NCBI GenBank assembly: GCA_030390025.1
Contig: CM059431.1
Coordinates: 125,738,001-125,802,000 of the forward strand
Source of the DNA: Squalus acanthias
Taxonomy: Eukaryota
DNA: 64,000 bases
Direction of reading: 5' to 3'
The translations under genes were made by a program, and so were the position numbers. Positions 5,798 through 63,139 of the stretch are shown here, piece by piece. Below the pieces are notes generated by a model, which saw only the letters and a list, made by a program, of their open reading frames with translations, was not told the origin of the DNA and searched no databases. Positions within the stretch are counted from its first letter, which is position 1, and each line of letters starts with the position of its first letter.

Positions 5798-5836
5798 TGC
5801 TACTTGAGACCCCATCTTGTTCACCTCTTTACTTCT

Positions 5837-12300: not shown

Positions 12301-12470
12301 AGCAATAGTATTAGGCAACGAAGGCCTAACCCCGCACAAGCACCTACGACCGAACCCCTTACACTCCTCGAAGCCATTCTCCAAGGCCATCTGCAATCTC
12401 CTGCACTGAAATTCACCAGCCTTCCACCAGCCATGCTGCAGCCGCTGGGGTAGCACTTCGCAGGAGCACT
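9388..12470 (+). pseudogene. Harbinger Myb/SANT-like gene remnant, interrupted by a solo LTR
   Basis: Begins MADHGRECAPKFLDAALEVLVEE and includes W..C.KKYNDL. GT/AG introns near 9628-9912 and 10065-10217, followed by an acidic exon. Confidence 0.65.
10997..12363 (+). mobile_element. Solo LTR, family B
   Basis: TGTAAAATTCGCAAT...CCCCTTACA with TSD CTCC on both sides; similar to the LTRs of 54406-62928. Confidence 0.92.
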
Positions 12471-21195: not shown

Positions 21196-21619
21196 GTCCC
21201 TCCTGTTGATGCGAATAACTCCGCTTATCGTATCAAAAATCTCAGTGGTGAGCAATCTTATCTCGATTTCACTCCGAATCCAGTAAATTAATCCCATAAA
21301 TTTTAACTTCACTAGGGTCTCTGTGTCGTCCTCATTTCCCAAGAAAAGTCACATTTTATATCACCGTAGGCATCATTTGCCCTTAAACTTACACCACTTG
21401 TTTTCCTTCCCGGCGTAACCAGGCCGATACCTCACGCATCACCTGTATATTTGTCTTTTATTCAAGGGAAGGAAAAACAAAACCCAAAAACCAAACAATC
21501 AACACCATCACCAAAATAAACAAATCCCGACTCTTAAACATGTCGAGTTTCCAACGTATTTACAATGAGTACAAACTTCCGCGGCGCACGTGGCGAGCGG
21601 GAGTGACGCCATTTTCCCA

Positions 21620-23970: not shown

Positions 23971-24254
23971 CCTTCCTTGGTTCCTGTGATCAGATAGAAT
24001 GAGGTAGCCAGCCTCGCAAAAAGTCTCTGGCTTTTGTGAAGGGTGAGCGGGTCCCCTGACCTCGCCTCACGTAAACTTCAACGTTTGCTGAATAGACTTC
24101 CTCTAAACCTAGCCTTAAAACTCCCATCATTTTATCGTTTTCTGTTAAAAACACTACAAACTTAACCTTATTAAAACTACTTAAAACTTTAAACTAAAAC
24201 TTAAAACCTTAAACTAATAACTTTACAATGCCGCCCGTTCTCAGGGCGGCCCCT

Positions 24255-30569: not shown

Positions 30570-30573
30570 TTTC

Positions 30574-32170: not shown

Positions 32171-32174
32171 ACCC

Positions 32175-32251
32175 GCACTGACATACAGGCTGCACAGAGC
32201 CGCGTGAACCTCACAGGCTACGAGACACGCAGGGTCAGGGAATCCCTTACA
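32175..32251 (+). repeat. Outer provirus 5' LTR, displaced last 77 bp of U5
   Basis: Matches 43251-43327 and ends CCCTTACA. Confidence 0.95.
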
Positions 32252-32255
32252 GAAA

Positions 32256-34066: not shown

Positions 34067-37000
34067 CTAGAACCAGCACAGCCCGTCTACCTGTGTCCGC
34101 TCAGCTATGATGCGTGGAGGCGACCTGTGGTGGAGATGGAGGTAGAGAAACAGAAGGGCAGTTATTTGTTGGACACGGGAGCTTCTTGCACCATAATCCA
34201 TACAGATAACCCTTTTGACTCGCCGCTATCTACCAAGGTCCCATTCACGCTGGCAGGGTTCACAGGAAAGAACAGGCTGGCACGTTTTCCCTCCGCTATC
34301 CATTCGTTTAGGAACACTTCGCCTTAAGTGGAAGTGTATACTGATGGCATGGCAAAAGGGGGGTGGAAGAGGTATTCTCGGGTCCGATCTCCTAGCGGGA
34401 CACGGGATCCTCGTGGACCTCAGAAATCACTGTCTCTGGGGGGCTAAAGGTGAAAAAGGCGAGGTAATGGTGATTCCGGGGGAGGAAGAAACAGGGGTCC
34501 TGTGTACCGTACAGCCATCCGGAGGCTACGACCTCAGGCTTATGGTCGCAGATGTCCCAACGGACATGCAAACGTACGTGTCAGATAATATGCACGCGTT
34601 TGCAACCCACAAGCACGATTGTGGGAGGGTGGTCGGGTTTGAGGTCAGCGTAGATGGGGACCCCATGACCCGACCCCAAAAGCAGTATAACTTCCCCAAA
34701 GAAGCAGAACCCGATATGGAGACAGCAATGTCTTCCTTGGTGCAGCAGGGCGTGTTGAGGCCGATAGCCACACACGTGAACTCCCCATTATGGCCGGTTA
34801 GGAAGCCGGATAATTCGTGGAGAGCCACGGTGGACTACAGAGTCCTTAACAGTAACATTCCCGCCTGCGCGCCCACAGTAGCAGCAGTTGCTGACCTAAT
34901 AGGGAGCATCCCAGCGTCCGCGACCACGTTCACGGTGCTGGATATCTCGAACGGTTTTTGGTCCATCCCGCTGCGGCGAGAGGACCAGTACAAGTTTGCC
35001 TTTACGTTTAAAGGGCAACAGTACACGTGGAACTGTTTGCCACAGGGTTTCCACAATAGCCCCAGTATTTTTCATCAGTGTATGGCAGGAAGTTTAAAGG
35101 AGTTTAGTCAGCCCAATCAGATAGTACAGTATGTGGATGATTTGCTCCTATTTACGGACTCAAGGGAGGAGCACGGACCACTACTGGACGAGTTATTGGA
35201 GCTGTTAGCGAGAAAGGGTTTTAAAGTAAACCCAAAGAAAGCACGTATCGGTCAGCAGGAAGTAAAATTCCTGGGACTGACCCTACGCGCTGGGGAAAGA
35301 GCCATAGACAAAGCAAGGAGGGAGTCGGTGCAAGAATTACCGATTCCCAACAACGTAAGGGGTGTGAGGTCCTTCTTGGGACTGACCGGTTACTGCAGGG
35401 ATTTTATCGAAGATTATGCGGCCACAGCGGCGCCGCTCCTCCGACTCCTCCATAAGGGGGTGGAGTGGCTTTGGGACGAGGGCTGCCAAGCAGCCTTCGA
35501 GAAGTTAAAAAGGGATCTGCAGACCGCGCCAGCCTTAGGGGCCATAGATGGGGGGAAGGAGTTTTTCCTGGAGGTAGCTGCCAGCGGAGACAGCTTAAGC
35601 GCCGTGCTGCTCCAAGAGCGTCACGGCAAGCTGAGGCCGGTTGTCTATTCATCCAGGGTATTAACGGATGTGGAGAGAAGTTTCTCCAATTGCGAAAGGC
35701 ACCTTTTAGCCACGCATTGGGCTGTGAAAAGATCAGCGATCTTCACAGGGCTCTCTCCCATCACTCTCCTCACACATCACACACCAACTAAGATGCTTCT
35801 GGATGGGAGGATTAAAGACGGGACCGTAAGCAGCGCACGCATTGCGCGTTGGACCCTTCTTCTCTCCCAGTTGGATCTTAGAGTAAAAGGTCTTTGCGAG
35901 CCCAGGCTTGCGGCCAATTTGGTATACCCCGGTACAGCCCACCGGTGTTCGGTGGAAGGGGTGTGGGACGTCAACATAGGTTTACGGGCCGGGATACATC
36001 CCACTGGGCGCGAGATTTATGTTGATGGGTCTAGCACAGTGTCTGCTGGCGAGCGACTCACAGGGTGTGGAGTTTATGACCCTGCGGCAGACCTTGCCCT
36101 GGCGATCAAGCTCCCTAGCACCATGAGCGCGCAGCAGGCTGAGCTGTCTGCCGTGGTGTACGTGGTGACCCACCCAGACATTTTCCCAACCCCATACACG
36201 ATTTGCTCGGACAGTATGTTCACCTGCAATTCGTGTACGGAATACCTGGCCATTTGGTCCCGCCGCGGATACACCTCCGCGGACGGGCGACCTTTAACGG
36301 TGAAGCCCTTGCTGGAAAAGATCTTAGCAGCAGCAGTAGGGGAGGAAGGGGAGATTTTCATCCATAAGGTGAAAGCTCACTCCTCCACAGAGCCCCGTGG
36401 GGAGGGCAACCGGCAGGCGGATGCGCTAGCCAGGGAGGGTGCCCGCGACGGCACTTTCTGGAACCCCTATAGGACCGGACCCATAGCAGCGGTCCGAGGC
36501 GGGGACGGGAATACCGGGAACACCAGGGTAGCATTGCCCCTAGACCTTAAGACCGTCCAAGCCCAGGATCCCGCCCTAAAAGCAGTCCTAAAAACGATTG
36601 CTGAGGGGAGGCAGGTAGAAGGTCCGTACAGTACGGCAACCCTCTCAGTTAAGGAAGGCATGCTGTTCCGCGGGGAGCAGTGGGTTGTGCCGCAGCAGCA
36701 CAGGAGGGAATTCCTCCAGTTGGCTCACGAGGGACCAGGGGCAGGGCACCCCGGGCCCGAGGTTACCTGGCAACGGGTAGAGCAAGCGGGATGGTGGCCA
36801 GGGCTCAGGGAACAAGTCCGCGAGTTCTGTGCAAACTGTCTTGTGTGCGCTGCAAACAACCCAGACCCCCAGAAAAGGAAGGTGCCCATGGGACACGTAA
36901 GAAGGGTAGAGGGACCATGGCAGTCGATACAGATCGACTATATAGGACCCCTGCCCACCACCCAGGGAGGTTATAAGTACTGCCTCGTCCTGGTGGATGT

Positions 37001-38589
37001 GTTTTCCAAGTGGGTGGAAGCCTTCCCTTGTCGAACAGCTACGGCACTGGGTACAGCAAAAATCTTGGTCCGGGAAGTGTTCTCGCGGTGGGGACTCCCC
37101 CGTTTCGTGGAGTCAGACCAAGGGAGTCATTTCACCGGCCAGGTGATGCAGAACACCCTCATGCTTTTGGGCATTGAAGGGAAGTGGCACGTAGCACACA
37201 ATCCCCAGTCATCCGGGATTGTTGAACGTATGAACCGGACCCTGAAGGAGAAATTGAGGAAAGAGACTAGGAACTCGCCCCAAAAATGGGCGGAAGTTCT
37301 GCCTTTAGTCCTCATGGGGGTCCGGGCCAGTCAGTCAAAAAGTACGGGGTACTCCCCGCACGAGGTAATGACCGGCAGGCTCATGCGAACCCCCACCCAT
37401 GTGCTAGCCCCGGTGCTCACTGAGGGTCAGCTTCAAGAGATAAGCAGGGACAAGTTCGCCCAGACTCTCTTGGAGCGCCTGAAGCAAGTTTATGAGCAGG
37501 CGGCTGGGAACATGGGAAGGCAGCATCAGGGCAATCGCTTGTTGCTGGAACCCCGCAAAACGCGGGAGTGGGAAGTAGGAGACCAGGTCATGGTCAGAAA
37601 CTACGCCAGAGTAGGGAGTCTGGAACCACTGTATATGGGACCCTACAACATTGTAGACAAGGCGAGTCCCATGGTTTACGCCGTAAAAGTGCCTCGGCGC
37701 ACTAAGTGGTTCCACATAAACCAATGCAAACTGTACCAGCCGGGTGCGCAGGGGAAAACTACAGGGGTAAATCCCGCCAATGGGAAAGCACAGCCCCAGG
37801 TAGGACCACAAGGCACACAGGCAGGCGTAGCAGCTTGCATCAGGGGAAGGGACATCCCGGACGATCATGCAGCGTTTTTCTGGAGTTGGGGGTTAGATGA
37901 CGAAGAACCCAGGGTACCCTGGTCAGATGAGGATAGTGCAGATGAGCATAGTGATGATGACGGGTGGTTCCTGAGGAACGGTCTGGGAGGAATGGGGCCG
38001 ATAGGTAGAGATCCACACAGGGTGGACACACAAGCTGCAGGTCCCGAGGACAGGAGGGAGGAGCTAGAGGAGGCAGGGCCAGCCGCTATAGGAGCACAGA
38101 GAGTACCAATGTGGCTCCCAGAGATGTGGCCGCCCGCCTTTGAACGTCCAGTCCTCAGGGGAGGCAGAGATCACGAGTGAAGGGCCGCCTGCTGGGCCGA
38201 GCAGGGCGGAGCCACGAACTGCCAGCCCCGAGGTTAGGGAGGCGGAGTCAGCGGAGGCGGAGCCGGCGACTGTGATGGAACCCCAGGTCATCCCGTTGGA
38301 GGTCTCGGAACCCGGTCCGTCCGTCACGGAACCCCCGCCCATAGCAACTCCCCGTAGGTCAAGTAGAGAACCCCAGCCCAGGAGGATGTGGTCATGTCCC
38401 CAGACTGCCCCAAGGCGTAAAATTCAGGTTAAGATAACCCGGGTAGAGACAGGCCACATCGCAGCAGTAACAGGCTGCGGCAGATCAGAGGAAAGGGTCA
38501 GCGCAGCAACAGGCTGCGGCAGATCAGAGGGAAGGGTCAGTGCCCTCCCACCGTCGGGAAGAGCTCGCAGCAGCCTTCTCAGAATTTAA
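34067..38589 (+). pseudogene. pol: pro-pol with C-terminal extension; single-base indels near 34267, 34293 and 38138
   Basis: ORFs 34127-34327, 34215-38180 and 38140-38589; same catalytic motifs as the inner copy. Confidence 0.93.
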
Positions 38590-38875
38590 AGGGGCCGCCC
38601 TGAGAACGGGCGGCACTGTAAAGTTATTAGTTTTAAGTTTAAGTTTGTAGTGTCAAGGTTAAGTTTTAAGTTTTAATAAGGCTAAGTTTGTAGTGTTTTT
38701 AACAGAAAACGATAAAATGATGGGAGTTTTAAGGCTAGGTTTAGAGGAAGTCTATGCAGCAAACGTTGAAGTTTACGTGAGGCGAGGTCAGGGGACCCGC
38801 TCACCCTTCACAAAAGCCAGAGACTTTTGCGAGGCTGGCTACCTCATTCTATCTGATCACAGGAACCAAGGAAGG

Positions 38876-41226
38876 ATGGAACGAATTCTAGTATTGCTCG
38901 TGGCAATCGGATGTGGATTGGCCTATCGAGGCCACACCAAGGATGTCGTGGTGTTTGGATGTTCCGGGGACACGGCCCCCATCGCGGTGGATGGGACCGG
39001 AAGACGGAAGGCAGAGGGGACCAGCACCTATTTCCACAAGGGAAGGTGGCCAGGATGGCTGGGAACGAACTCAACGGAGTATTCCAGCACATCGGGGTTC
39101 GCCTACAAAGAGACTTCTTTAATGTGCCCCAAAGTAAGGATCATCGCACCCAGGATCAGCGTCACCGTCGGCAAACGGATTTGTTTGACCTGTAGTGGGA
39201 ATGTCCCATTGAGCCGATGGTGGTGGCTGCGAAAGCTGAGCAAAACTATGAGAAACTCTTCGGTCGAGTGGGAACGACTGGGTAATAATACCCATCGGAC
39301 AATTACGGGGACAGACGGACAAGTGAAAGTCTGTTGGGACAAATGGTGGGAACCGGATGAGGGATTTATGTATGTATGTGGGGGTCAAAGTACGTTTGCC
39401 CCAAAGGCATCTCCATATTTTTTATTAATCAATGGCAGGATAACGGACAGGGGATGAGGTGGGATGCGAGCACCAGGGGGTGCGGAGCCCCATTCTCCCC
39501 GATCCCAGTAAATGCCACTGAACTCATTACGCGCCCACGCAAAGCCCCGCCCACGATTCCGGTGGTTCTAGCTGAGGAAGAAGGGTGCCCTAAAACTAGT
39601 AAGGGACCCGGAAACGGTTTGGTACTGGTCCCCACAGACCAGATACTATTTCAGGGGGTACATTACGCGGTGGCCTCGGTGATTTTAAATCTCACTGAGG
39701 TACGGTTACCAGAGTGGTGCCCCAAAAAGACGGAACAGTTGTATCAGGTCCTGTTGACCAAGATGTTCAGACAATTTTACGAGTTTGATTTTGCAGAAAT
39801 TGATAAGACAAGTTTGTACACCGCACCGCAGGAAGTTTTGGATCAAGTAGGGAGGCAAAGAAGGGGTTTGGTGAACGATGCGTTCACTGCTTTTAACACA
39901 GGGACATCTGTGGTCAACGCTCTAGACAGTGTGGAGCTGCAGACCCAGATTAATGGTTTAAAAACACAGTTAAAAGACATTCTAACAGATGAGAATAAAG
40001 TGGTAGGGTCAGGTCTACACGAGGACCAAGCCATGACTCTCCATTTAAAGGAAATTATAGCAGAGCTGGAGAAACATGCGCGTACGGTAAATGCCCTGAT
40101 CAGGGAAGATCGGAATGCATCCGATCAAGCTGCGCAGAACGAGGTGTGCGTGCTTTACGGGGCGTGGTTACTGGGCGAGGGCCGCAGTAATTTGGAGGAT
40201 TTAAAACAAGGTTTGGTTCCGTCCTGGATAAGTAACAAACACCTACGGGCGCTCCACCCTTTTCAGAACGCATTAAGTCCGTGCCAGCTCAGGCTAGCTT
40301 CAGAAGCTTACCCAGTCCCCGTGGACTGCGGACGTTCAAACCATACTATTATGGGAATAGTATTACGCATGCCGGTTTTGGGCAACACAGCAAAGCCCGC
40401 CCCGGTATATCGGGTAGAGAACATTGGTGTCATTCAGGGGGGAGCCCACATTCGTTATGCAGCGGTTCCACCTTACGTCATCCGCTGGGAGCAAACGATG
40501 ACAGGTACAGATCTCTCTGGTTGTCGTGGCAGGGGAGCACACATAATACTGTGCCCCCAGCACTTGAATGCCTTTTTAACACCACAGTGCGGGTTCAGAA
40601 CGGCTGGCGCCAAGTCCATGAATTGCACCATGGAGGCAATGGCACAAGATCATGTGCCTCCGCAGGTAGCATACATCGGGGGTGGAACATATTGTGTTAC
40701 CACTGCAGCGCAACACTACCAGCATGGAAACCGTAGCCGGTGTCCGGTGAGTGACAGCAGTTTCTGTTTTAAACCCAGGGCTGAAGTTCAAGTAGCACAA
40801 CAGCGAATTATCCCAATCCCTGAACCATCCACTGTTCATCTCACAGTAAAAGAGAATTTCACCGACTTGCAGCGATTTGTCGCGCATTTTGGATACCTCA
40901 TTCCCCCTCTCCCTGAGCATTTAACCAAACTTCTGAAAGCCGTCGCGGTATCACAGAAACATTTTTATACATTAGAGCAGAAAACTGTCGAAATAGGAAC
41001 AGACATTTTAGACATAGTAATCCCGCCATGGTGGGATCTGTTCACAAACATTCAAGTACCGTCCTGGATCAGAATAGCCTCCCATATTTTAGTCGTCTGT
41101 CAAGTGTTTATTGTAGTGTACCTATTGGTCATACATTGTAAAATAGACAAGCGCCTCACCAAGCATGAAAACACGGGAGAGTGGCGAGAACGTTACGTGC
41201 GCGTGCACGATGAGAGCACCGTGTAA
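38876..41226 (+). pseudogene. env: env; one frameshift near 39362
   Basis: MERILVLLVAIGCGLAY signal peptide after the splice-acceptor-like CTCATTCTATCTGATCACAG (AG at 38861-38862); ORF 39376-41226. Confidence 0.9.
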
Positions 41227-41637
41227 TCGGAAAATGGCGCCACTCCCGCTCGCCGCGTGCGCCGCGGAAGTTTGTACTCATTGTAAATACGTTGGAAACT
41301 CGACATGTTTAAGAGTTGGGATTTGTTTATTTTGGTGATGGTGTTGATTGTTTGGTTTTGGGTTTTGTTTTTTCCTTTCCCTGAATAAAAGACAAATATA
41401 CAGGTGATGCGTGAGGTATCGGCCTGGTTACGCCGGGAAGGAAAACAAGTGGTGTAAGTTTAAGGGCAAATGATGCCTACGGTGATATAAAATGTGATTT
41501 TCTTGGGAAATAAGGACGACACAGAGACCCTAGTTAAGTTAAAATTTATGGGATTAATTTACTGGATTCGGAGTGAAATCGAGATAAGATTGCTCACCAC
41601 TGTGATTTTTGATACGATAAGCGGAGTTATTCGCATC

Positions 41638-41649
41638 AACAGGAGGGAC
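41638..41649 (+). promoter_or_regulatory. Short polypurine tract
   Basis: AACAGGAGGGAC directly before the 3' LTR; identical in all three proviruses. Confidence 0.7.
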
Positions 41650-43327
41650 TGTAGAATTCGCAATATATCGCGATTTGATTAATAAGGAGAAAACACAAAG
41701 TTTCGTTCAAACAGCTTTTATTTCAGCAGAATGCTGGCAGGTTTAAATTGGACACAAGCAGCCTGTAAAATGGCCGCCGCACCTCGTGACAGAACATTCT
41801 AGACTTTTCAACAGGCAGACAAGATGGCGTTCCATTAAACATTTGTGCAAGATCGATAACGATTCAGCACAGTGAAGATAATACACGAGACATTATGGGT
41901 TTGCAGTATAAACATAGATACTGGAATCGGTCTCCCAGGTACAAAGGAAAGCCATTGTACCGAGTAATCAAGGGCCCATCCAAAGGACATTAATATGTAA
42001 ACTCCCAACGACTCTACGATGAGAGAGCCGTTAGCAGGTAGTTATACATGACACTTGGAAGCCCCAAACCCCTCCAGGGAGAACACCGACCGATTTAACA
42101 ATGGGAGAAATATTAACAGGTACTCAAACATTCATGAGTAGCCCCGAAACCCATTAAGAACGGAGATCACCCATACAAGACATTTGGGCGCCAAACCCTA
42201 AACAAAAGAATGGACATTATAGTTGGGCGGGAAACGGAAGATTTTTGCACTATAATTGCAGGCCCCAAACCGTCCATTCGCTCTCTTGCCTCTTGCCTCG
42301 TGCTCTTGTTCGTGCTCCTGCGTTCGCTCGCTTGCTCCTGTGTTTTATCCGGTCGATTCGTAACCTCGTGGCTGCTCCTGTGTACTCGTAGTTGGGCTTC
42401 TGCGTGCCTGTTGCCTCTTCTGAAAAGACTGTTGAACTTTCTGATCCGTACGGATCTACCTCGTGTCGCGAAACGAAGACCTATGTTGGTAACTGGCAGC
42501 GGAACCAAAGGCCCGAGATGAGATGAGATGAGAGGAGAAGAGAAGAAGACCATATCCATCGCCACGGTCAGTAAATCCCGACCGCGCCTGTAGGTCGATC
42601 AGCCAAGTTTCTCCTTGCCAGGAAGACTTCTTTGAACTTTAAAGGACAGACCCCGGAAGATTCTCCTTTGAGATATTGACTAATCTGTGAAACCCACCAA
42701 CAGAGGTCTTCATCACAGCAGACGGTCCAGCCTACTAGCCGAAGCAGCAGAAGCAAGTAAACAAGTGGGACCAGGAGATCTCCTGACCGACACGTGGGTG
42801 CTGCGGTGAAAAACATCCGATCAGCTATTCGGAATTTCTCCGAGTTATCACGAGTGGTGAGCATGAGTCTCGAGATCCTACGAAGCTAGTTTAGGATAGA
42901 TATTGATAGGGGAGGGTTTAAAGATTAAGGATATTTGTAATGTGTGCCCCTATTTACGTTGTGCCGTTCGTTCCTCGTTTCCCTAAGATCGACTATATAA
43001 CTGTTTGTAAGATTGTACTGTCATTAATCTGTGCTTATGACATGTATTTCATAATTTTAAGTATCATGCAATAAAGTTTTTCCATTTCGTACCATTCAAA
43101 CCAAGTCTACATGAGTTTTATCTCCATTACTGCTCTCGCATCTAAGTCCAGTGTCTAGAACCGTAAGGGAGAGTGATTCGAACCACTCACAGGTGTGTCT
43201 AGTGTTCCCAGACAGGCTGGAGACCAGAACAGGCAACCAGGCCTAGACCCGCACTGACATACAGGCTGCACAGAGCCGCGTGAACCTCACAGGCTACGAG
43301 ACACGCAGGGTCAGGGAATCCCTTACA
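41650..43327 (+). repeat. Outer provirus 3' LTR (1678 bp)
   Basis: TGTAGAATTC...CCCTTACA followed by TSD GGTT. Confidence 0.96.
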
Positions 43328-43588
43328 GGTTCAAGGTTGTGAACAGTCTAATTCAGCCTCAGACAGTGGCCAGGGAGAGATGTGGAGTCGATGGCTAAGG
43401 AATGGAGTTTGTGGCGGGGATCGATGATGGCTTTGGTCTTTCCAATATTTAATACGAGGAAATCTCTTCTCATTAGCGTATTAGATGTCAGACAAGCAGC
43501 CTGAAAATGTAGAGGCAGTGGAGGGGTCAAGAGAGATGGTGGTGAGGTAGAGCTGGGTGTCGTCAGCGTACATGTGGAAACTGATGTT

Positions 43589-51200: not shown

Positions 51201-51816
51201 TTCTTTCTTTTGCATGCCATGATTCGAATCCTCCTGACATTACAACGGCTTGATGCTTTCCTGAACCAGAAGATGAGATACAAATTGTTCATATGATGGA
51301 GTATACAAAAATGGAAGAAATACACAAAAAGAAACTAAGGTTTTTGAACCATCTTCATTGAACTTAATAAAAAAACTATTGAGGATGATAAGCATTTTCA
51401 TCTGCTTATAGAATGACACCATACATTATTACAATGTGTGCTGATAATAGTTAAAACTGCAAAATATGAAGTTGAGCCTGTCAATCCCTTTCATTGCAGC
51501 TTTATTCTAATTAGATGTCTTGTTTTTCAGCTGAAGGAAACATTGATATGCCAGCAGAATTTCTTTGTGTCAATTATGATGGAGAATGATGAACTAGATT
51601 CTTTTTCAAAACTGGTTACAAATCTGCCCACACAGCCTCTCTGGTTGCACCTTGTCCCCGCTCGCCCTCCACCCACCCATAGCATTTTAGTGTTGCAGCA
51701 AGCAAATATTACATCTAACATGCTGTAATTTGTTCTGTATCTACTCACTATTAATGCATAATAACAGCCATACCTATCACAGTTTAGCTCACCAGAGTTA
51801 GTTATACCAGCTTTTT

Positions 51817-54405
51817 ATAGAAACATAGAAACATAGAAGATAGGAACAGGAGTAGGTCATTCGGCCCCTCGAGCCTGCTCCACCATTTAATGAGATCAGT
51901 GGCTGATCATTCAAATTCAGTACCCCTGTCCCTGCTTTCTCCCCATTTCCCTTGATCCCTTTAGCCTGAAGAAATATATCTAACTCCTGCTTGAATATAT
52001 TTAATGAATTGGCCTCAACTGCCTTCTGTGGTCGAGAATTCCACAGGTTCACCACTCTCTGGGTGAAGAAATTCCTCCTCATCTCAGTCCTAAATGGCTT
52101 AACCCTTATCCTTAGACTGTGACCCCTGGTTCTGGACTCCCCCGCCATCGGGAACATCCTTCCTGCATCTAGTCTGTCTAGTCCTGTTAGAATTTTATAC
52201 GTTTCAATGAGATCCCCTCTCATTCTTCTAAACTCTAGCGAATAAAAGCCCAATCATCCCAATCTCTCTTCATACGTCATTCCTGCCATCCCAGGTATCA
52301 GTCTGGTGAATCTTCGCTGCACTCCCTCCATGGCAAGAACATCCTTCCTCAGATAAGGCAACCAAAACTGCACACAGTACTCAAGGTGTGGTCTCACCAA
52401 GGCCCTGTACAACTGCAGCAAGACATCCTTGCTCCTGTACTCAAGTCCTCTCGCTATGAAGGCCAACATACCATTTGCCTTCTTAACTGCCTGCTGCACC
52501 TGCATGCTTACCTTCAACGAGTGGTGCACAAGGACTCCCAGGTCTCGTTGCACTTCCCCTTTTCCCAATCTATTGCCGTTCAGATAATAATCTGCCTTCC
52601 TGTTTTTGCCACCAAAGTGGATAACCTCACATTTATCCACATTATACTGCATCTACCATGCATCTGCCCAATCACCCAACCTGTCCAAATCATACTGGAG
52701 TTTCTCTGCATCCTCCTCACAGCACACACGCCCACCCAGCTTTGTGTCATCTGCAAACTTAGAGATATTACATCTAATTCCCACGTCTAGATCATTAATA
52801 TATATTGTGAATAGCTGGGGTCCTAGCACCGATCCCTGCGGTACCCCACTAGTCACTGCCTGCCACTCAGAAAAAGACCCATTTATTCCAACTCTTTGCT
52901 TCCTGTCTGCCAACCAGGTGCATGCCAGAAGGAGAGTAACATATGAGGATACCAGCATCTTGTATCCTTTCAGCCCCGCCACTAGCCAAGGGCTCAGCCT
53001 GCCACTCGGAAAAAGACCCATTTATTCCAACTCTTTGCTTCCTGTCTGCCAACCAGTTCTCTATCCAAGTCAGTACCTTACCCCCAATCCCATGTGCTTT
53101 AACTTTGCATGCTAATCTCTTATGTGGGACCTTATCGAAAGCCTTCTGAAAGTCCAAATACACCACATCCACTGGTTCTCCCTTATCTATTCTACCAGTT
53201 ACATCCTCAAAAAATTCCATAGATTAGTCAAGCATGATTTACCTTTTGTAAATCCATGTTGACTTTGTCCAATCCTGTCACTGTTTTCCAAGTGCTCTGT
53301 TATTACATCTTTTATAATGGACTCTAGCATTTTCCCCACTACCGATGCCAGGCTTACGGGTATATAATTCCCCGTTTTCTCTCTCCCACCTTTTTTAAAC
53401 AGTGGGGTTACAATAGCTACCCTCCAATCCATGGGAACTGTTCCAGATTCGATAGAATTTTGGAAGATGACCAGCAATGCATCTACTATTTCTAGGGCCA
53501 CTTCCTTAAGTACCATAGGATGTAGATTATCAGGCCCTGGGGATTTATCGGCCTTCAATCCCATCAATTTCCCTAACACCATTTCCCTACAAATACTGAT
53601 TTTATTCAGTTCCTCCCTTTCATTTGACCTCATGTTCCCCGACATCTCTGGGAGGTTATTTGTGTCCTCCTTTGTGAAGACAGAACCAAAGTATGTATTT
53701 AATTGGTCTGACATTTCTTTGTTCCCCATTATAAATTCCCCTGATTCTGACTGCAAGGGACCTACGCTTGACTTCACCAGTCTTTTTCTCTTCACATATC
53801 TATAGAAGCTTTTACAGTCAGTTTTTATGTTCCCTGCAAGCTTACTCTCATACTCTATTTCCCCCCTCTTAATTAATCCCTTTGTCCTCCTTTGCTCAAT
53901 CCTAAACTGCTCCCAATCCTCAGGTTTGCTGCTTTTTCTGGCCAATTTATATGTCCTCTCCTTGGATCTTATGCTATCCCTAATTTCCCTTGTTAGCCAC
54001 GGTTGAGTCACCTTTTTTGTGTTATTTTTATGCCAAACAGGGATGAACAAATTCTGTCGTTCATCCATGCGATCTTTAAATGTTTGCCATTGCCTATCCA
54101 CCGTCAACCCTTTAAGTAACATTCCCCAATCCATCCTAGCCAATTCGTGCCTCATACCATCGTAGTTTCCTTTATTTAAATTCAGGACCCTAGTCTCTGA
54201 GTCAACTACTTCACTCTCCATCTTAATGAAGAATTCTATCATATTATGATCGCTCCTCCCCAAGCAGCCTCGCACAACAAGATTGCTAATTAATCCTTTC
54301 TCATTACATAATACCCAGTCTAAATGGCCTGATCTCTAGTTGGTTCCTCGACATATTGGTCCAGGAAACCATCCCGTATACACTCTAGGAATTCCTCCTC
54401 CACAG
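51817..54405 (-). mobile_element. CR1 LINE ORF2 region (resumes at 62933-63050 beyond the ERV)
   Basis: LGRSDHN endonuclease end, KSPGPD, YLDFQKAFDKV, GVPQGSVLGP, KFADD; 3' (ATAGAAAC)n tail. Confidence 0.93.
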
Positions 54406-54761
54406 TGTAAGGGGGCGTGTCTCAGACGGTGCTGGTGCGAGGTTAGGCCTTCGTTGCCTAATACTATTGCTTGCTCTGGTCTCCGGCCAGCCTTATTGCA
54501 ATAAGCACCTGTGAGTGGTTCGACCCACTCGCCCTTACGGTTCTAACACTGGACTTAGGTGCAGGGAGCAGTAATGCAGAGAAAAACTCAAATAGACCTG
54601 GTTGAATAGTACGAAATGGAAATCTTTATTGCATGGCATCGAAAATCATGAAATACATGTCATAGGCGCAAATCAATGATAGTACAAGTATACATGCATT
54701 CATAAAGCTTGGTCTGTGGAAATGGAGAACACACGGCACATCGTAGAAAGGGGAACACATT

Positions 54762-55653
54762 AGGGGAAAAATTCAGTCGCGCCCCGTTCGGGGCGCAAAT
54801 ATCATCCGGGCGCAAAAATTAGCGCCTGGCGCTAATTATCGCCACTGACTGGAAACGTCACTTTTAACGCCCCGGGAGGTGATTGGAGCGCTAAATCAGG
54901 CGCTTCACACCTGTCTTAAGGCGCAAAGGCCGAGGAGCGAGGCGCTAACTCAGAGCGCTGGCGAAGCTCATGTAATGTCAGTCAGCAATGGAACACACAC
55001 ACAATGGCACAGGCCAGTTCTTAAAGGGGATGGTTAATCTTGCTTTCCATCCACATCCTGTTCATTGCAGCCTTGAATCTCGGCCTGGAGAGACTTGCAC
55101 ATCAAATCTGCTGGAAAGAACAATGGAGAGTACCAGGCAAAGAGCTCAGAGTGCAGCCCCCACAGTCTCTGCTAAATTGATACAAGGAATGGCAAATCAA
55201 AATGAACCTGCAAAGTGCTGCTCAGTACCCAAAACTCCTTCACACAACGTTGAATCTCTCCAGAAGTCTCTCCCTCTCTCTCTCAGAATGCGTAGTTCAA
55301 AAATGGCACCAACAATAAAAGGCAGGAAGCGGTCACCTTTAAATAGCGCTCCCCCTTTCCCTTCATGACTGCAGAATGCTCCCCTCAACCTGTCGTTGCT
55401 AGCGTCAGGCGGTAAGGCAGGGGCGCCACTCAATATCCGCTCCAGGGCGATACCGGGGCGTTGCACACTCGAATGACGTGATGATCTGCCGGTGCAGGAG
55501 ATCGTGGCGGTAGTGTTTAGCGCCGCCGCAAAATGTCTAGTTAATTTCGCGAGCGGCACAAACATCTCCGCGCCCGGGCGCTGGATGCTTTGCGCCCCAT
55601 TAGCGCCCTCTTAAGGCGCTAACGGGAGGCGCAACCAACTGAATTTTTCCCCC
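54762..55653. mobile_element. Harbinger-derived MITE inserted in the 3' LTR
   Basis: TIRs (A/G)GGGGAAAAATTCAGT, TSD ATT; absent from the sister LTR (GAACACATTATATC near 61590). Confidence 0.88.
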
Positions 55654-57307
55654 ATTATATCTTAACCTTATTAAAACACCCTCCCTTAATAATACCTACA
55701 CTACGTCTAGATTTGTAGGATCGTAAAACATGCTCACCACTCGTTTAATTTCGGAGATTTTAAAGTGAGGCACTCGGCTCGTTTCACTGCAGCACCTGAC
55801 TGTCACGTGTTTGGAAGGGTCTCTGCACCCCACTTGTTTACTTTCGCTGCTGTCATGAAAAGTCGATGGACCCAAACCGGATCGTGCAGTAACCCGTAGA
55901 ATTCAAAGATGAGTTCTGTATTTATATTTTCGGGCGCGGTCGGGGTTTACTGACCGTGGCGGCACGTGGAATTTCTTCTCGTCTTCTTCTCGTCTTCTTC
56001 TCGTCTCGTCTCCTCAGGCCTCCGGGTCCAGACACCATTTACCGACACTCGGGATGGTGTACCCTTTTACTTGCCCTTGTCGGGGCGGCTCGTACCGATT
56101 GAGCTCCACCCAACACTCGAATAACCGACCAGTACGGCTAAGAGTCAAGAGTCAACAAAGTCCAGAGAGAAAATCAAGAGCCCACAAGTCAAGCGAGTTC
56201 ATGAAGAGGCAAGCGAATAAGAGTTCAGCAGTCAGCATCGAGATAAGAGCCAGCTGGGAGAATAAGAGACCGATGGACATTTGTTCTCTATAGTTATAGT
56301 GATGTGTCCCCTTATCTCCCACTCAAATCTTAATGTTTGCCCTTTGTGTAATATTGGCGCTCAAAACTCCCAGCTTGGGGCGGTTATCTTCCTTAACGGG
56401 TTTCGGTAGCACCTGAAACAGGCCAACTATCCGTTAATGTTTTCCCCATTGTTGAACCAGCCAGGATGTGTATGAATTGTCTCCCTGACTGGTTTTGGGC
56501 CCCCCCCCCCAATACTTGCTTAATCACCCGTCGATGTCTCTCTCATTGTAGAGCCGGGGGGGTATTTGTGTATTGATGTGTCTGGATGGGCCTTCGATTG
56601 CCCAGTACAATGGTCCTTACTGTGCATAGGAAAACGATTCCAGCACTTATATCTTTGCTATTGTTCCAAATGCAAACAGGTTGCATCCTGTCTTTATCAG
56701 TGTTTACCGAGTATGATCCAATCTTATACTGAATGTATATTCGACGCCATCTTGTCTGCCCACTGTGTTTCTGGAAGCTTCTGCCACGATGCGCGGTGGC
56801 CATTTTACAGGCTTCTGTGTCCTTTATTATCAGGACAGCATTTCGTTTAATAAAACTGATCAAACGAATCTGCTTTTATCTTGTTATTTTTGAATCGCGA
56901 TAATTGCGAAACTTTACAGTCCCTCCTGTTGATGCGAATAACTCCGCTTATCGTATCAATTAAAATGCTGGTGAGCAAAATTATCCCGATTCTCCACATC
57001 CAAACACTCCGGTAATTAAACTATCTATGGCCTCCATGCAGTCCTCATTTCCCAGAGAAAATACATTGTCTAACTTGGACAAATCGTAGGCAGCATTGCC
57101 TTTAAACTTACACTGCGTATACGCCTTCCAGGTGCAAAAGGCCGATGTCTCTCGCACCACCTGTATATGCATGTTTTATTATAAAAGGAAAATAATCAAA
57201 CCAACTATTTTAAAAATACAAAAATTCCAAACTTAGTTACACATACTCATAACTAACAACAATTACAAAACACACATGGAAAAATGGAGCGGCGTCATCC
57301 TGGCTGT

Positions 57308-58125
57308 TTACGCGGTACTTTCCTCGTTCACGCGCACGTAACGTTCTCTCCACTCCCCTGTGTTCTCCTGCCTTGTGAGGCGTTTGCCTCTTTTGCAGTG
57401 TACAACCAATAGGTACACTACAATCACAACTTGACACACTACCAAAATGTGGGAGGCTATCCTGATCCAAGACGGAACTTCAATATTAGTGAACAGATCC
57501 CACCACGGTGGGATTACTATGTCCAATATCTCTGTCCCTATCTCTACAGTCTTTTGTTCCAGAGTGTAAAAATGTTTCTGTGATACCATGACAGCTTTTA
57601 AAATCTTGGTGAGGTGTTCAGGGAGAGGGGGAATGATGTACCCGAAATGCACGATGAATCGCTGCAAGTCTGTGAAATTCTCTTTTACTGTGAGGTGAAC
57701 AGTGGATGGTTCAGGGATCGGGACAATTCACTGTTGTGCCACTTGAACTTCAGCCCTGGATTTAAAACAGAAACTGCTGTCACTCACCGGACACTGGCTG
57801 TGCTGTCCATGCTGGTAGTGTTGCGCTGCGGTGGTAATGCAATACGTTCCACCCCCTATGTATGCCACCTGTGGGGGCACATGATCTTGTGCCATTGCTT
57901 CCATGGTGCAATTCATGGGCTTCGCGCCAGCCGTTCTGAACCCGCATTGTGGTGTTAAAAAGGCATTCAAGTGCTGAGGACACAGGATGATGTGTGCTCC
58001 CCGGTCCCATCTGTCGCGATGGGGGCCGTGTCCCCGGAGCAACCGAACACAACAACATCCTTGGTGAGGCCCCGATAGGCCAATCCATATCCGATCGTTG
58101 CGAGCACTATCAGAATTGTTTCCAT
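57308..58125 (-). pseudogene. env: env remnant (signal peptide joined out of frame to the C-terminal third)
   Basis: METILIVLATIGYGLAY...APIATDGTG joined to GAHIILCPQH near 58000; additional stop at 57728. Confidence 0.88.
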
Positions 58126-58356: not shown

Positions 58357-59436
58357 TTAGCTGTACAGCGCCGCCCGTTCCCAGGGCGGCCTACCTAAAT
58401 TCTGCGAAGGCTGCCACGAGCTTTTCCCAGTGGCGGGGGGGGCACTGACCCCTTCCTTTGATCTGCCGCAGCCTGTCGTCGCTGCGCTGGGACTGGGATC
58501 TCCCTGGGCTGCCTTGAACTTACGCTTGGGGGTGTACGAGGGATTTGGCCACAACTTCCTGGGCTGGGGTGTCCGACTCGACCTACGGAGGGCTACCTTG
58601 GGCAAGATTTCCAGGACCGAAGGACCGGGAACCGAGACTTCCACCGTCACGGCCTGTGGTCCCACCACAGCCGCCGGCTCTGTCTCCCCTGGCTCCGCCC
58701 CCCTGGGCTCGGGATCTGCGGTTTCCGACTCCACCCTACTTGTCACTTCAGTATGTGGAACTCCACTCGCAATCCCTATCTCCCCTATGCTTGGGTCGGG
58801 GGCGGAACCTCCGTCCTCCGACCCCACCACCTCTCCGACCGGGTCACTACCTTGGTCGAGCTCTCCGAGCTCTTCCTCATCTGAATCCCAAGACCAAGAA
58901 AAGATCCTACACTTTTCCAGAATGTCCTCTCCCCTCACGCAAGCTGCTTTACCGGCCTGTGTGCCCTGCGGTTCTACCCGGGGCTGAGAGTCCCCACTCA
59001 CAGGTTTGGCCCCTCCCCTAAGACAGGCCACCGCCCCTGCTCGTGCATTCTGTGTCATCTCGCCTGCTGGAGGCTGAAGATTTCTATTCTGTTTTATTTT
59101 GGGCAACTCTGCTACCATGGCTTGCAACTGCGGGGTGGTGAATTCCCCCGGGGTTGTTGAGCAAACCATCCCTCTGGCTTTGGATAGGGCTTGGGTCAGA
59201 CCTTTTATCCTTTCCTCACAGGGCCCATGGTTTAAATCCTCATACTCCCGGCTCCTGGCTACCCTGTAGGCTGCCTTTATGTCTCTAAGCTGCCCTTCTA
59301 GCCCATCTATTTTCCCCATTAAGCGGGCGTTCTCCTCCCGCAAGGTCTGCTCTTTTAATCTGGCCTCCTTACAGGAGGCCCCCTCCTGTGCGTGTCTTTC
59401 AAGGGGACACAGGTAGGCAGGCTGCGCCGGTTCCAG
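58357..59436 (-). CDS. Chimeric readthrough-frame ORF: pre-protease stub, divergent Gag-like segment, Pol C-terminal tail
   Basis: Open for 360 codons (including the stop) in frame with the gag stop; see findings. Confidence 0.7.
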   Translation of the reverse strand: MEPAQPAYLCPLERHAQEGASCKEARLKEQTLREENARLMGKIDGLEGQLRDIKAAYRVARSREYEDLNHGPCEERIKGLTQALSKARGMVCSTTPGEFTTPQLQAMVAELPKIKQNRNLQPPAGEMTQNARAGAVACLRGGAKPVSGDSQPRVEPQGTQAGKAACVRGEDILEKCRIFSWSWDSDEEELGELDQGSDPVGEVVGSEDGGSAPDPSIGEIGIASGVPHTEVTSRVESETADPEPRGAEPGETEPAAVVGPQAVTVEVSVPGPSVLEILPKVALRRSSRTPQPRKLWPNPSYTPKRKFKAAQGDPSPSAATTGCGRSKEGVSAPPATGKSSWQPSQNLGRPPWERAALYS

Positions 59437-61236
59437 TCAGAAGTCTGGGTTGTATGGGGCTGTTGCTCCCTTCCCGTGTGAGGTCATGAGAGACCGCATG
59501 GCTCCTAACATGGACTCTATCGCATCGGGATGGATAGGCACACCAGCTCCTTTCTCAGAGACAGGCGCTTGGGTTCGGACTGCGGGAGCTTTTTTCCTGG
59601 AATCCTTCCAGGGATTCCTACAGTTTTTACGCCAGTGACCTGTCTTCCCGCACCCGTAACAAACACTACTGGTTTGTGGGGCGCGATTTCCCTCCTGATG
59701 CCACTCTTTCTGAGCCGGAGCTGCGGGCTCTGCTTCATGCACCTTTCCTTTAACGGGACGCGCTCCCGTGCTCCTAGTGTTCCGATACCCTATGGTGAGA
59801 TGACTCAGGACAGATTCCTCCATTGTCTCGGGGTTAGTGGGATCAAACCACGCTCTGGCCTGCTCCCTGACGGCTGGCAAGCTGTTGGCTACTATGCACC
59901 TGAGCCAATGAGCTTTCCCGGCGCCGTCCAGATAGATGTGCTGTGGCGCACCTGGGCAGCTACGCTGGTATACTGGCTACAATCTGTCGGCGAAAACCCG
60001 CGGGGGTTCTCCCTCCATCTGTACGGTCTGACACAGTCTGACGAACGGACCCTCGTCATCCGCCCCTAACACTTCTAGGACCTCGTCCCGTAACTCCCCA
60101 TAGGTTTTATTTCCCTTCTTGCTCTCGTCGGAGAGACACTGAAGGATCGAGCTATCTAAAGAGAACAGCAACATTTTGGTCTTTTCCTCGTCGTCGCAGC
60201 CATTAATCGCTGCGGTCTGTTCTACTTCCCTAAAATGTACAGAAGGGTCGTCTGACTCAGACAGCTTCCGTACATGGCTAATCATTGCTCTCAGCTGGTG
60301 TGAGCTGTGGGGCAATACAAGTTGGTTCAGGACATCCCCGTCTTCCCCATTGGCTGCATTCGGGCCTCTCTTGTGACCTCGGAGCGGACACATCGGTCCC
60401 GGTCTCGACTCTACCTCCGGGGATTGTCCTACCTCGGGAACCTCCTTCTCTATTTCCACCACTTCCTCCCTTACCCAGGTTGCCGAATAGCTGGGTGGCG
60501 CGGAGGGCATAGTGGCTGATACCTCTTCTGCTTTTTCCGGTAGGGATTTTGGGAATTCCCTACTTACCTGTGGCTGGTGTGCTGACGGGCTGATGAGACA
60601 CACCAAGCCGTTTGCCTTACTCAGGGACTCCCTCAGGTTCTCTATCTCCCTCTGGCAAACACTGTGGTCTGCTCCCTCATGCCTATCCTCGAGAGCCATC
60701 TTGTATGCCACCCTAACTCCCTTCAAGCTTTCTTCCTGGGCTTTTATCTGGTTAGCTAGGCGGACACACCGTTCTCTAATCCGACCCTCGTTTAATTTTG
60801 CTTCCGTGACCTGACATTCTAGGTAATCAATTTTAGCCTCATGGTGGTTGGCTACTATTTGGCGTTCCTGATGTAACGCATTCAATGATGCAATGAGTTT
60901 CTGTCCTCCCGTGACCTTTTCCTCCATCTCAACTTCCAATTCCCTGATCTGAGCTGCCTGTGCTGCAATGACCTGGTCCGAAAGTTGGACTTGCTTCTTG
61001 TAGCACATCAGCCAGACTGCTTTCTCTACCGACTTCTTATGATCTTTACTGCATGTCCATTTGATGGCAGCGTCTAGCGGACGCTTATCCATCAGTAGGT
61101 CACTTATCCACTTTTTGGTCAAGTTAACCTTCCCAAACACATAGTCAGTTACCCTCTCATCCATCACATTTCGCCTATTCAAACCAGTGTCTAAAACATT
61201 ACTCTCCTGCTGCCAATGTCCTGCCGCAGTCGCCAT
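59437..61236 (-). pseudogene. gag: gag with a single TGG>TAG nonsense change at 59977
   Basis: ORFs 59977-61236 and 59437-59880 are in the same frame; PSAPPSY and CYGCGKTGHWRKNC are retained. Confidence 0.92.
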
Positions 61237-63139
61237 TTTCTGTAAGGGGGCGTGTCTCAGACGGTGCTGGTGCGAGGTTAGGCCTTCGTTGCCTAATACT
61301 ATTGCTTGCTCTGGTCTCCGGCCAGCCTTATTGCAATAAGCACCTGTGAGTGGTTCGACCCACTCGCACTTACGGTTCTAACACTGGACTTAGGTGCAGG
61401 GAGCAGTAATGCAGAGAAAACTCAAATAGACCCGGTTGAAAAGTACGAAATGGAAATCTTTATTGCATGGCATCTAAAATCATGAAATACATGTCATAGG
61501 CGCAAATCAACGATAGTACAAGTATACATACATTCATAAAGCTTGGTCTGTGGAAATGGAGAACACACGACACATCGTAGAAAGGGGAACACATTATATC
61601 TTAACCTTATTAAAACACCCTCCCTTAATAATACCTACACTACGTCTAGATTTGTCGGATTTGAAAACATGCTCACCACTCGTTTAATTTCGGAGATTTT
61701 AAAGTGAGGCACTCAGCTCGTTTCGCTGCAGCGCCTGACTGTCACGTGTTTGGAAGGGTCTCTGCACCCCACTTGTTTACTTTCGCTGCTGTGAAAAGCA
61801 GGCCAGACTCCCTGTTGTCATGAAGAAGTCGATGGACCCAAACCGGATCGTGCAGTAACCCGTAGAATTCAAAGATGAGTTCTGTATTTATATTTTCGGG
61901 CGCGGTCGGGGTTTACTGACCATGGCGGCACGTGGAATTTCTTCTCGTCTTCTTCTCGTCTTCTTCTCGTCTCATCTCCTCGGGCCTCCGGTTCCAGACA
62001 CCGTTTACCGACACTTGGGATGGTGCACCCTGTTACTTGCCCTTGTCGGGGCGGCTCGTACCGATTGAGCTCCACCCAACATTCGAATAACCGACCAGTA
62101 CGGCTAAGAGTCAAGAGTCAACAAAGTCCAGAGAGAAAATCAAGAGCCCACAAGTCAAGCGAGTTCATGAAGAGGCAAGCGAATAAGATTTCAGCAGTCA
62201 GCAGCGAGATAAGAGAATAAGAGCGTTCAGCAGTCAGCATCGAGATAAGAGCCAGCTGGGAGAATAAGAGACCGATGGACATTTGTTCTCTATAGTTATA
62301 GTGATGTGTCCCCTTATCTCCCGCTCAAATCTTAATGTTTGTCCTTTGTGTAATATTGGCGCTCAAAACTCCCAGCATGGGGCGGTTATCTTCCATAACA
62401 AGTTTCGGTAGCACCTGAAACTGGCCAACTATCCGTTAATGTTTTCCCCATTGTTGAACCAGCCAGGATGTGTATGAATCGTCTCCCTGACTGGTTTCGG
62501 GCCCCCCCCCCCCGCCCCCGAATACTTGCTTAATCACCCGTCGATGTCTCTCTCATTGTAGAGCCGGGGGAGTATTTGTGTATTGATGTGTCTGGATGGG
62601 CCTTCGATTGCCCAGTACAATGGTCCTTACTGTGCATAGGAAAACGATTCAAGCACTTATATCTTTGCTATTGTTCCAAATGCAAACAGGTTGCATCCTG
62701 TCTTTATCAGTGTTTACCGAGTATGATCCAATCTTATACTGAATGTATATTCGACGCCATCTTGTCTGCCCACTGTGTTTCTGGAAGCTTCTGCCACGAT
62801 GCGCGGTGGCCATTTTACAGGCTTCTGTGTCCTTTATTATCAGGACAGCATTTTGTTTAATAAAACTGATCAAACGAATCTGCTTTTATCTTGTTATTTT
62901 TGAATCGCGATAATTGCGAAACTTTACAACAGTATTGTTACTAATTTGGTTAGCCCAAACTATATGTAGATTAAAATCACCCATGATAACTGCTGTGCCC
63001 TTATTGCACGCGTCTCCAATTTCCCGTTTAATGCCATCCCCAACCTCAGCATTATATGATTGGCATTATATGTTTGGCGCAGAGGAGAAAGAAGAAAAAT
63101 TAAGTATTCTATATGGTTATAAATAGCATCAGAACAGAA

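What the first reader, a model, noticed from the sequence alone, without database searches (positions are those of the whole stretch)
58357..59439. Satellite-like provirus in which pol is replaced in frame by a second, divergent Gag fragment
Seen: after the gag UGA the frame stays open. It reads LEPAQPAYLCPL (cf. LEPAQPVYLCPL before the protease), then 59095-59370 EARLKEQTLREENARLMGKIDGLEGQLRDIKAAYRVARSREYEDLNHGPCEERIKGLTQALSKARGMVC..FTTPQLQAMVAELPKI. This aligns with Gag EAKLNESRMKERCNRQ..VRSAYKLALEDKFQGADHSACEKEIESLKKAVNNANGMVC..HSSHQLRAMINHVRKL, but is much more divergent than the element's own gag and lacks the PSAPPSY spacer. The ORF then joins the Pol tail (PQGTQAG.AACVRG..FSWSW..RRSSRTPQPRKLW). 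PR, RT, RH and IN are all absent, while LTRs, PBS and PPT are intact. Inference: a helper-dependent element whose readthrough product (Gag-Gag'-tail) may co-assemble with, hijack or interfere with helper capsids. Frame preservation across both junctions hints at selection.
Basis: partly seen in the sequence, partly recalled or inferred. Interest (0 to 1): 0.82.

Follow-up and report, generated by a model that had tools for sequence, protein, structure and literature searches.

The report
Lineage-hopping Gag cassette replacing retroviral pol
In what is probably a shark or ray genome, a short in-frame piece stitched together from several virus-like elements has replaced the enzyme gene in more than a thousand helper-dependent copies and has moved between three related virus families, keeping its reading frame each time, which suggests it helps these freeloading elements get copied.

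Summary
After the gag UGA a 359-codon frame stays open; PR, RT, RH and IN are gone. The insert is a 454-nt cassette (59468-59015), a mosaic from other lokiretrovirus-like families of the same genome: gag end, UGA, protease start and a link from an E/F-like family, Gag coiled coil from family D (84-92% nt), first capsid helix from family C (96-98%). The same cassette sits on three backbones: E/F-like (90 matches), B (this window) and the very young family A (1,017 matches); at least 1,381 junction matches against 2,104 normal protease starts. Frame is kept: 5 of 5 shared indels in the cassette are in frame, 0 of 5 private ones; 185 of the first 200 listed copies are in frame. Amino-acid constraint is not detectable (omega 0.5-1.0, intervals include 1), and the most successful form lost the capsid helix. 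Best reading: a portable Pol surrogate whose translation acts in cis (as with mouse IAP 1-delta-1), not shown to be a capsid-hijacking protein. This window's copy is itself decayed. New variant of a known kind.

The parts
61241..62928 (-). 5' LTR (family B type), TGT...ACA ends
   Evidence: 35 mismatches in 1622 aligned nt against the 3' LTR (2.2%)
62929..62932 (.). 4-bp target-site duplication, copy beside the 5' LTR
61218..61235 (-). Primer-binding-site-like stretch starting TGG, overlapping the gag start; same position as in family A; tRNA not identified
59437..61236 (-). gag of family B (N-terminal coiled coil, capsid, zinc knuckle); broken in this copy by an internal stop at 59977-59979; last 10 codons belong to the cassette
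59015..59468 (-). 454-nt foreign cassette replacing the B gag end through the IN end
   Evidence: parent family B matches to 59469 and again from 59014
59401..59468 (-). Cassette shell, 5' part: gag end, UGA (59437-59439), first 12 protease codons; E/F-like origin
   Evidence: 84% over 63 nt to L088, 81% over 64 nt to L090; continuous with an F-like gag in L092
59143..59400 (-). Gag coiled-coil fragment from donor family D, with a 30-nt in-frame deletion
   Evidence: 84-92% nt to 7 family D copies; deletion sizes; long helices predicted at aa 22-60 and 71-92
59089..59142 (-). First capsid helix (FTTPQLQAMVAELPK) from family C, joined across a 177-nt in-frame spacer deletion
   Evidence: 98% to L069, 96% to L081 and L083, 74-79% to family D
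59015..59088 (-). Link ending in a cleavage-site-like motif (AVACLRG), like the start of an E-type Pol tail
   Evidence: likeness to L087 (83% over 24 nt); continuous with an E-type tail in L092; cleavage is inferred
58357..59014 (-). Pol tail of family B (region after integrase), with the RRSSRTPQPR motif
   Evidence: 86-95% nt to 4 pol-bearing B copies; related motif in families A-E
57308..58125 (-). env remnant: start joined out of frame at 58002/58001 to the 3' end; 52 codons to the first stop
56919..56927 (-). Short polypurine tract before the 3' LTR
54406..56918 (-). 3' LTR, interrupted by an 890-bp terminal-inverted-repeat element at 54763-55652
54402..54405 (.). 4-bp target-site duplication, copy beside the 3' LTR

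Best explanation
The element is one copy of a non-autonomous, gag-retaining lokiretrovirus-like family that depends on pol-bearing relatives for PR, RT and IN (shown by anatomy). Its pol is replaced by a portable cassette. The cassette was assembled on an E/F-like backbone from Gag pieces of families D and C, then moved by recombination to backbone B, shortened there, and moved again to backbone A (shown by nested remnants and by falling identity to the donors). It works as a Pol surrogate in cis: ribosomes that read through the gag UGA (inferred from the same in-frame UGA before pol in the autonomous families) meet an open frame that runs into the native Pol tail. That translation favours the RNA that carries it, most likely by shielding it from nonsense-mediated decay behind the early gag stop and/or by the cis effect known for IAP 1-delta-1 (inferred, not tested). 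What is selected is mainly an open, translatable frame; the Gag origin of the filler reflects which RNAs were co-packaged, and its amino acids are at most weakly constrained.
For: Frame: shared indels in the cassette 5 of 5 in frame, private 0 of 5, intergenic shared 1 of 6 (Fisher p 0.008 and 0.015). In 20 copies picked only by a 17-mer, 19 of 19 complete cassettes were in frame without stops. Length classes: 98 of the first 100 listed A-type and 87 of the first 100 listed B-type matches in frame; every class with 5 or more members is in frame. The stop itself is kept in 66 of 69 copies. The env deletion in the same element is out of frame. Sequence: shared-change omega 0.93 over ORF codons 1-330 and 0.74 in the Gag piece, not below neutral, against 0.32-0.44 in three of four parts of own gag; between backbones 0.38-1.01, all intervals include 1 or more. 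The A form lost the capsid helix. Precedents: readthrough protects against decay in reporters (PMC5360307, passages); the IAP 1-delta-1 fusion acts in cis (PMC6466679, one passage).
Against: Omega point estimates between backbones are mostly 0.4-0.7, so weak protein-level selection is not excluded; power is low. The first coiled-coil heptads are kept in the forms I could read and were duplicated twice (+69 in B, +75 in A). No plain protease-start-to-tail deletion within 500 nt was found in family A (0 matches), and the first 100 listed of 656 short gag-to-tail joins all show the cassette start: if any open frame would do, plain in-frame deletions should also appear. Readthrough only shortens the distance to the 3' LTR from 2,519 to 1,439 nt, and the cited paper reports that longer downstream frames weaken protection. 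Direct repeats in the cassette are in frame more often than a third (0.37-0.65), which weakens the indel test; three +70 and two -137 copies may be shared frameshifts; one -7 shift in the tail is shared by 4 copies. No readthrough-stimulating structure stood out (z -0.6 to +1.3). Readthrough and expression were not observed.
Confidence: 0.5

Rival explanations
1. The coiled-coil fragment is a functional protein module. The readthrough product is co-packaged, helper protease frees or leaves attached a short Gag coiled coil, and this module oligomerises with Gag to bias assembly or packaging towards the satellite RNA or to damp the helper.
For: First heptads kept in all forms read and duplicated independently on B and A; helices predicted with pLDDT 75-91 over aa 21-80; cleavage-like motifs flank the piece; the cassette, not a plain deletion, is what spread on A; omega point estimates below 1; net omega against donor D 0.30, 95% 0.11-0.73.
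Against: The 0.30 value spans the donor's own time as a normal Gag. Within satellites omega is not distinguishable from 1. The capsid helix and the conserved HGPC...GMVC half are deleted in the most numerous form. A and B Gag share only a third of residues with the fragment. The duplications may follow in-phase microhomology.
Confidence: 0.22
2. The cassette is an in-frame adaptor whose job is to keep the native Pol tail expressed from the satellite, so that particles rich in satellite Gag still carry the tail peptide (for example a chromatin or nuclear tether; that role is a guess from the basic motif).
For: Every transfer rejoins the frame to the host backbone's own tail; an RRS.R.P.PR motif is shared by the tails of families A-E; 32 of 46 copies are open from the stop to beyond this motif, the same rate as an equal length of gag (31 of 46); shared tail indels 4 of 5 in frame.
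Against: Tail omega is 0.8-1.2; its in-frame indels may be inherited from pol-bearing parents; a shared -7 shift upstream of the motif occurs in 4 copies; a helper supplies the tail in trans; those 46 copies were chosen by similarity to the frame.
Confidence: 0.14
3. No translation-linked selection: the cassette spreads as an RNA element or as a passenger of short, well-packaged genomes, and frame is kept by in-phase microhomology and chance.
For: Omega near 1; in-frame share of direct repeats up to 0.65 in the cassette; the five construction junctions were what drew attention, so they are ascertained; homologous crossovers keep frame automatically.
Against: Private indels in the same stretch are 0 of 5 in frame against 5 of 5 shared; no class with 5 or more members is shifted in 200 copies; no stable fold after the stop; large parts of the RNA were deleted without loss of success.
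Confidence: 0.14

Closest known systems
Mouse IAP 1-delta-1 subtype (PMC6466679, one passage seen; primary paper not held)
   Same: Non-autonomous LTR element; internal deletion leaves an in-frame gag-pol fusion; the fusion acts in cis and the subtype outcompetes full-length copies.
   Different: There a plain self-deletion in one family. Here the gag stop is kept, the frame lies behind readthrough, the filler is foreign Gag from two other families, and it moved between three backbones.
BHIKHARI / Bik-1 and Bik-2 of zebrafish (bioRxiv 10.1101/2024.03.25.586437, passages seen)
   Same: Lokiretrovirus relatives, non-autonomous, keep a Gag with N-terminal coiled coil and capsid, lack pol.
   Different: Described with a single gag ORF; no second Gag piece, readthrough frame or Pol tail in the passages seen.
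recKoRV (PMC5696478, passages seen)
   Same: Recombinant between two endogenous lineages in which the coding centre is replaced; amplified with a helper.
   Different: The replacing PhER part has no coding capacity and gag is truncated; no frame conservation.
Lokiretroviruses (PMC7947760, first quarter of text, passages and supplement search seen)
   Same: gag, pol with tether plus RNase H, F-like env; 'smc' is annotated as part of an smc-gag-pol gene in the supplement, which fits the Gag coiled coil captured here (inference).
   Different: [quoted passage not shown]
TR-GAG plant elements (PMC4350172) and Ty1 p22 (PMC4599808); search listings and abstract starts only
   Same: Gag-only non-autonomous elements; a truncated Gag that acts on assembly.
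   Different: TR-GAG has one ORF; p22 is the C-terminal half of the element's own Gag and limits copy number.

Membership tests
Lokiretrovirus (helper families and backbone) | gag, pol, env between LTRs | tested here: met
   Family A copies in the window
Lokiretrovirus (helper families and backbone) | Pol with PR, RT, degenerate RH tether, second RNase H, IN | tested here: met
   Pfam RVT_1, RT_RNaseH, RNase_H, Integrase_H2C2, rve above cut-off; protease models just below cut-off
Lokiretrovirus (helper families and backbone) | Env related to Mononegavirales F proteins, with RXKR/RXRR site | tested here: inconclusive
   No PF00523 hit at E 0.1, no PDB hit; feature look-alikes are Baculo_F 0.94 and Fusion_gly 0.91 clusters (a lead); RQRR visible in the sequence
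Lokiretrovirus (helper families and backbone) | RT groups with lokiretroviruses in a phylogeny | not tested
Non-autonomous (helper-dependent) LTR element | Lacks replication enzymes but keeps LTRs, PBS, PPT | tested here: met
   the 3' LTR of this copy has a later insertion
Non-autonomous (helper-dependent) LTR element | Amplified as such: many dispersed copies with the same junctions | tested here: met
   1,017 and 364 junction matches, controls 0; many contigs, both strands
Non-autonomous (helper-dependent) LTR element | Different target-site duplications at different loci | not tested
   Only the window copy's 4-bp duplication was read; ends of other copies were not obtained. Some copies lie in tandem arrays
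Non-autonomous (helper-dependent) LTR element | A pol-bearing partner with matching cis sequences exists | tested here: met
   108 IN-end matches of family B, 93-95% nt to the element in 3 of 4 gag regions fetched; family A pol, 144 of 144 scored places identical
IAP 1-delta-1-like cis-acting fusion | In-frame fusion ORF created by loss of part of pol | tested here: met
   here behind a retained stop
IAP 1-delta-1-like cis-acting fusion | Translation of the fusion raises copying in cis | not testable with these tools
   Only the evolutionary signature (frame kept) was seen
Defective-interfering / satellite element with an assembly-hijacking protein | Encoded protein binds helper capsid or lowers helper output | not testable with these tools
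   No functional data; amino-acid constraint not detected

The most novel reading that the evidence does not exclude
The cassette is a selfish module one level below the satellite: a mobile mini-gene that converts any related autonomous lineage into its carrier by two crossovers (at the gag stop and at the Pol tail), and whose readthrough product, a short foreign Gag coiled coil cut out by helper protease, biases assembly or packaging towards its own RNA. It would have survived three successive virus waves by hopping to whichever family was active, and now marks about 40% of gag-stop junctions of families A and B.
Probability: 0.22. Interest if true: 0.88.

Novelty: new variant of a known kind. 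Interest (0 to 1): 0.74.

Why it matters
Non-autonomous retroelements are usually seen as dead-end deletions tied to one helper. Here the defect itself is a heritable, portable unit that crossed between backbones about 27% apart in gag DNA and reached more than a thousand copies. Its signature (frame kept, amino acids loose) gives a natural, large-sample test of whether translation past a retroviral gag stop acts in cis on copying, so far shown mainly for IAP 1-delta-1 and in reporters. It also documents co-packaging and recombination among at least five lokiretrovirus-like families in what is probably a cartilaginous fish, a group not listed as a host in the abstract of the paper that defined them.

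Tried and rejected
Self-duplication of the element's own gag: rejected, donors D and C are far closer. Unique or assembly-made junction: rejected (contigs of other runs bridge the junctions). Word-index protein search with aa 1-125 found nothing among 102 candidates; the exhaustive search found 5 relatives, two named from sharks. Feature look-alike search of the cassette protein gave only uninformative hits of 0.90 or less. Pattern searches for a donor with the cassette's gag end followed by a real protease found none (0; 1 match, a cassette variant), so the exact E/F-like shell donor is not identified. Search with a distant Gag (P0004) returned only 42-45% matches. One of four presumed B gag regions (L065) and several presumed IN-end regions (L074, L077, L082, L084, L089, L091) held no matching sequence. 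RNA folding after the stop: not above shuffles. Complex prediction of Gag B coiled coil with the fragment: no verdict. Sequencing runs: no RNA holder listed; contigs cannot show expression. The tree places the cassette beside family D, but its long outgroup branch makes the root unreliable; direction rests on nested remnants instead. Earlier scan notes: nothing found. The primary IAP paper is not held. Literature searches for such a cassette listed nothing describing it; the library lacks most subscription journals, and bioRxiv supplements were not seen.

Full report
1. Observation. The element lies on the minus strand between LTRs at 61241-62928 and 54406-56918, flanked by a 4-bp duplication; the LTRs differ at 35 of 1622 aligned sites. 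A 359-codon frame (58357-59436) follows the gag UGA. Its Gag likeness is far above chance: score 142 against own Gag, maximum 61 in 2000 shuffles and 87 in 2000 heptad-block shuffles. Pfam finds no enzyme domain in it, while full-length relatives in the window carry RT, tether, RNase H and IN. This copy is decayed: internal stop in gag at 59977-59979, which one other copy (L055) shares by position; 890-bp insertion in the 3' LTR; env remnant deleted out of frame.

2. It is a family. All 40 scored places of a DNA search and all listed places of a protein search (150 of 161) match. Junction 25-mers with up to one mismatch give 364 and 1,017 matches, controls 0; the normal protease start of families A and B gives 2,104. 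These are lower bounds; the cassette thus marks roughly 38-40% of such junctions. Target-site duplications of other copies were not read.

3. Parent and insert. A pol-bearing family B exists (108 IN-end matches). Three of four gag regions and four of four tail regions fetched match the element up to 59469-59472 and again from 59014. The 454 nt between are foreign and include the gag end and the stop.

4. Donors. A pattern that excluded the cassette's own upstream letters led to other families. The coiled coil is 84-92% identical to seven family D copies, with in-frame deletions of 30 and 177 nt (six and six of seven copies measurable at those sizes; L070 shows 169). The capsid helix is 96-98% identical to three family C copies but 74-79% to D. 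The gag end and protease start are closest to E/F-like copies (84% and 81%), and the link resembles an E-type tail; their exact donor was not found.

5. Lineage hopping. Of 20 copies chosen only by a 17-mer, 1 has an E/F-like backbone, 7 have B, 11 have A, and 1 is a fragment with an A tail (backbones of 11 of the 20 were checked against candidate parents, the rest classed by the same identity pattern). The E-type junction has 90 matches. Order E to B to A follows from nested remnants: A forms share the -138 and -3 deletions of short B forms and keep 10 nt of B tail before the A tail; identity to donor D falls 88.8, 85.5, 83.3%. Diversity agrees: A-type copies are nearly identical (pS 0.012), long B copies 0.045.

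6. Selection on frame. Among 68 copies, shared indels in the cassette are 5 of 5 in frame, private 0 of 5; intergenic shared 1 of 6; tail shared 4 of 5; own gag shared 1 of 3. Forty-eight of these copies were chosen by similarity, which favours intact ones; the 20 others were not, and 19 of 19 complete cassettes among them are open. From coordinates of the first 100 of 656 A-type and of 177 B-type matches, 98 and 87 are in frame; shifted ones lie one base from a class, one seven. Against: in-phase microhomology raises the null to 0.37-0.65; some classes may combine earlier events; three +70 and two -137 copies may be shared shifts.

7. No clear selection on amino acids. In 49 copies, shared-change omega is 0.74 for the Gag piece and 0.93 for the frame, not below neutral; own gag gives 0.32-0.57 (possibly inherited from helpers by recombination). 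Between backbones omega is 0.38-1.01 with intervals that include 1. Against donor D it is 0.30 (0.11-0.73), but that spans the donor's time as a normal Gag. The A form has lost the capsid helix and half of the coiled coil and duplicated the first heptads.

8. Mechanism. Shown: helper dependence by anatomy, mosaic origin, two transfers, frame conservation. Inferred: readthrough of the UGA (same in-frame UGA-C before pol in families A-F; leakiness of this context is recalled); cleavage at the flanking motifs (likeness only); a cis benefit of translating the frame. Precedents: IAP 1-delta-1 (PMC6466679, one passage) and readthrough against decay (PMC5360307, passages). The strongest fact against a pure any-frame model is that no plain protease-to-tail deletion was found in A while the cassette was imported; this keeps the coiled-coil and tail-delivery rivals alive.

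9. Comparison. It works like IAP 1-delta-1 (in-frame pol replacement favoured in cis), arose like recKoRV (inter-lineage replacement; PMC5696478, passages) and belongs beside BHIKHARI (pol-less lokiretrovirus relatives; passages). Lokiretrovirus membership is met for genome layout and dual RNase H, inconclusive for env, untested by RT phylogeny (PMC7947760: first quarter, passages and supplement search; PMC9040795 passages). Searches listed no description of a portable Gag-derived pol replacement; coverage of journals is incomplete. Family letters A-F are my labels.

10. Verdict. Real, amplified, under selection for frame; new variant of a known kind. Interest 0.74. The boldest reading, a hopping module with a capsid-biasing coiled coil, has probability about 0.22.

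Noticed in passing
window 54763-55652: 890-bp element with terminal inverted repeats inserted in the 3' LTR.
   Followed up: partly
window 19599-32172 (-) and about 32173-43328 (+): Two pol- and env-bearing family A proviruses back to back in inverted orientation; LTRs of the first differ at 9 of 1601 nt. Family A is very young and large: 144 of 144 scored pol places identical to the query.
   Followed up: partly
whole genome G000: At least six related lokiretrovirus-like families (A-F here) with an in-frame UGA between gag and protease. Nearest named relatives are from catshark, whale shark, sawshark and skate, so the host is probably a cartilaginous fish.
   Followed up: partly
window 10997-12344: Related LTR-like sequence, 83-90% to this element's LTR, apparently solo.
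   Followed up: no
window 3725-4705 (-): 326-aa frame that looks like a Harbinger-type transposase (recalled likeness, not tested).
   Followed up: no
window 51798-54335 and 5194-5799: LINE reverse-transcriptase fragments of CR1 type (recalled likeness).
   Followed up: no
L024, L006: Single copies in which own gag is largely missing and the cassette follows the leader region; L006's upstream part resembles a family A-like LTR.
   Followed up: partly
G000:C3:64285912-64318269: Six cassette-bearing copies in tandem at a 6.4-kb period.
   Followed up: no
Pol tails of families A-E (window 58561-58590; L062, L072, L085, L087): Conserved basic motif RRS.R.P.PR in an otherwise fast-changing tail after integrase; function unknown.
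   Followed up: partly
P0002: Whale shark gene model joining a Gag coiled coil to an env-like start; may be a similar deletion or a prediction artefact.
   Followed up: no
runs X1, X2, X9: Contigs of runs labelled organisms A, B and C show the 138-nt skip and cassette sequence; whether these are other species is not known.
   Followed up: partly
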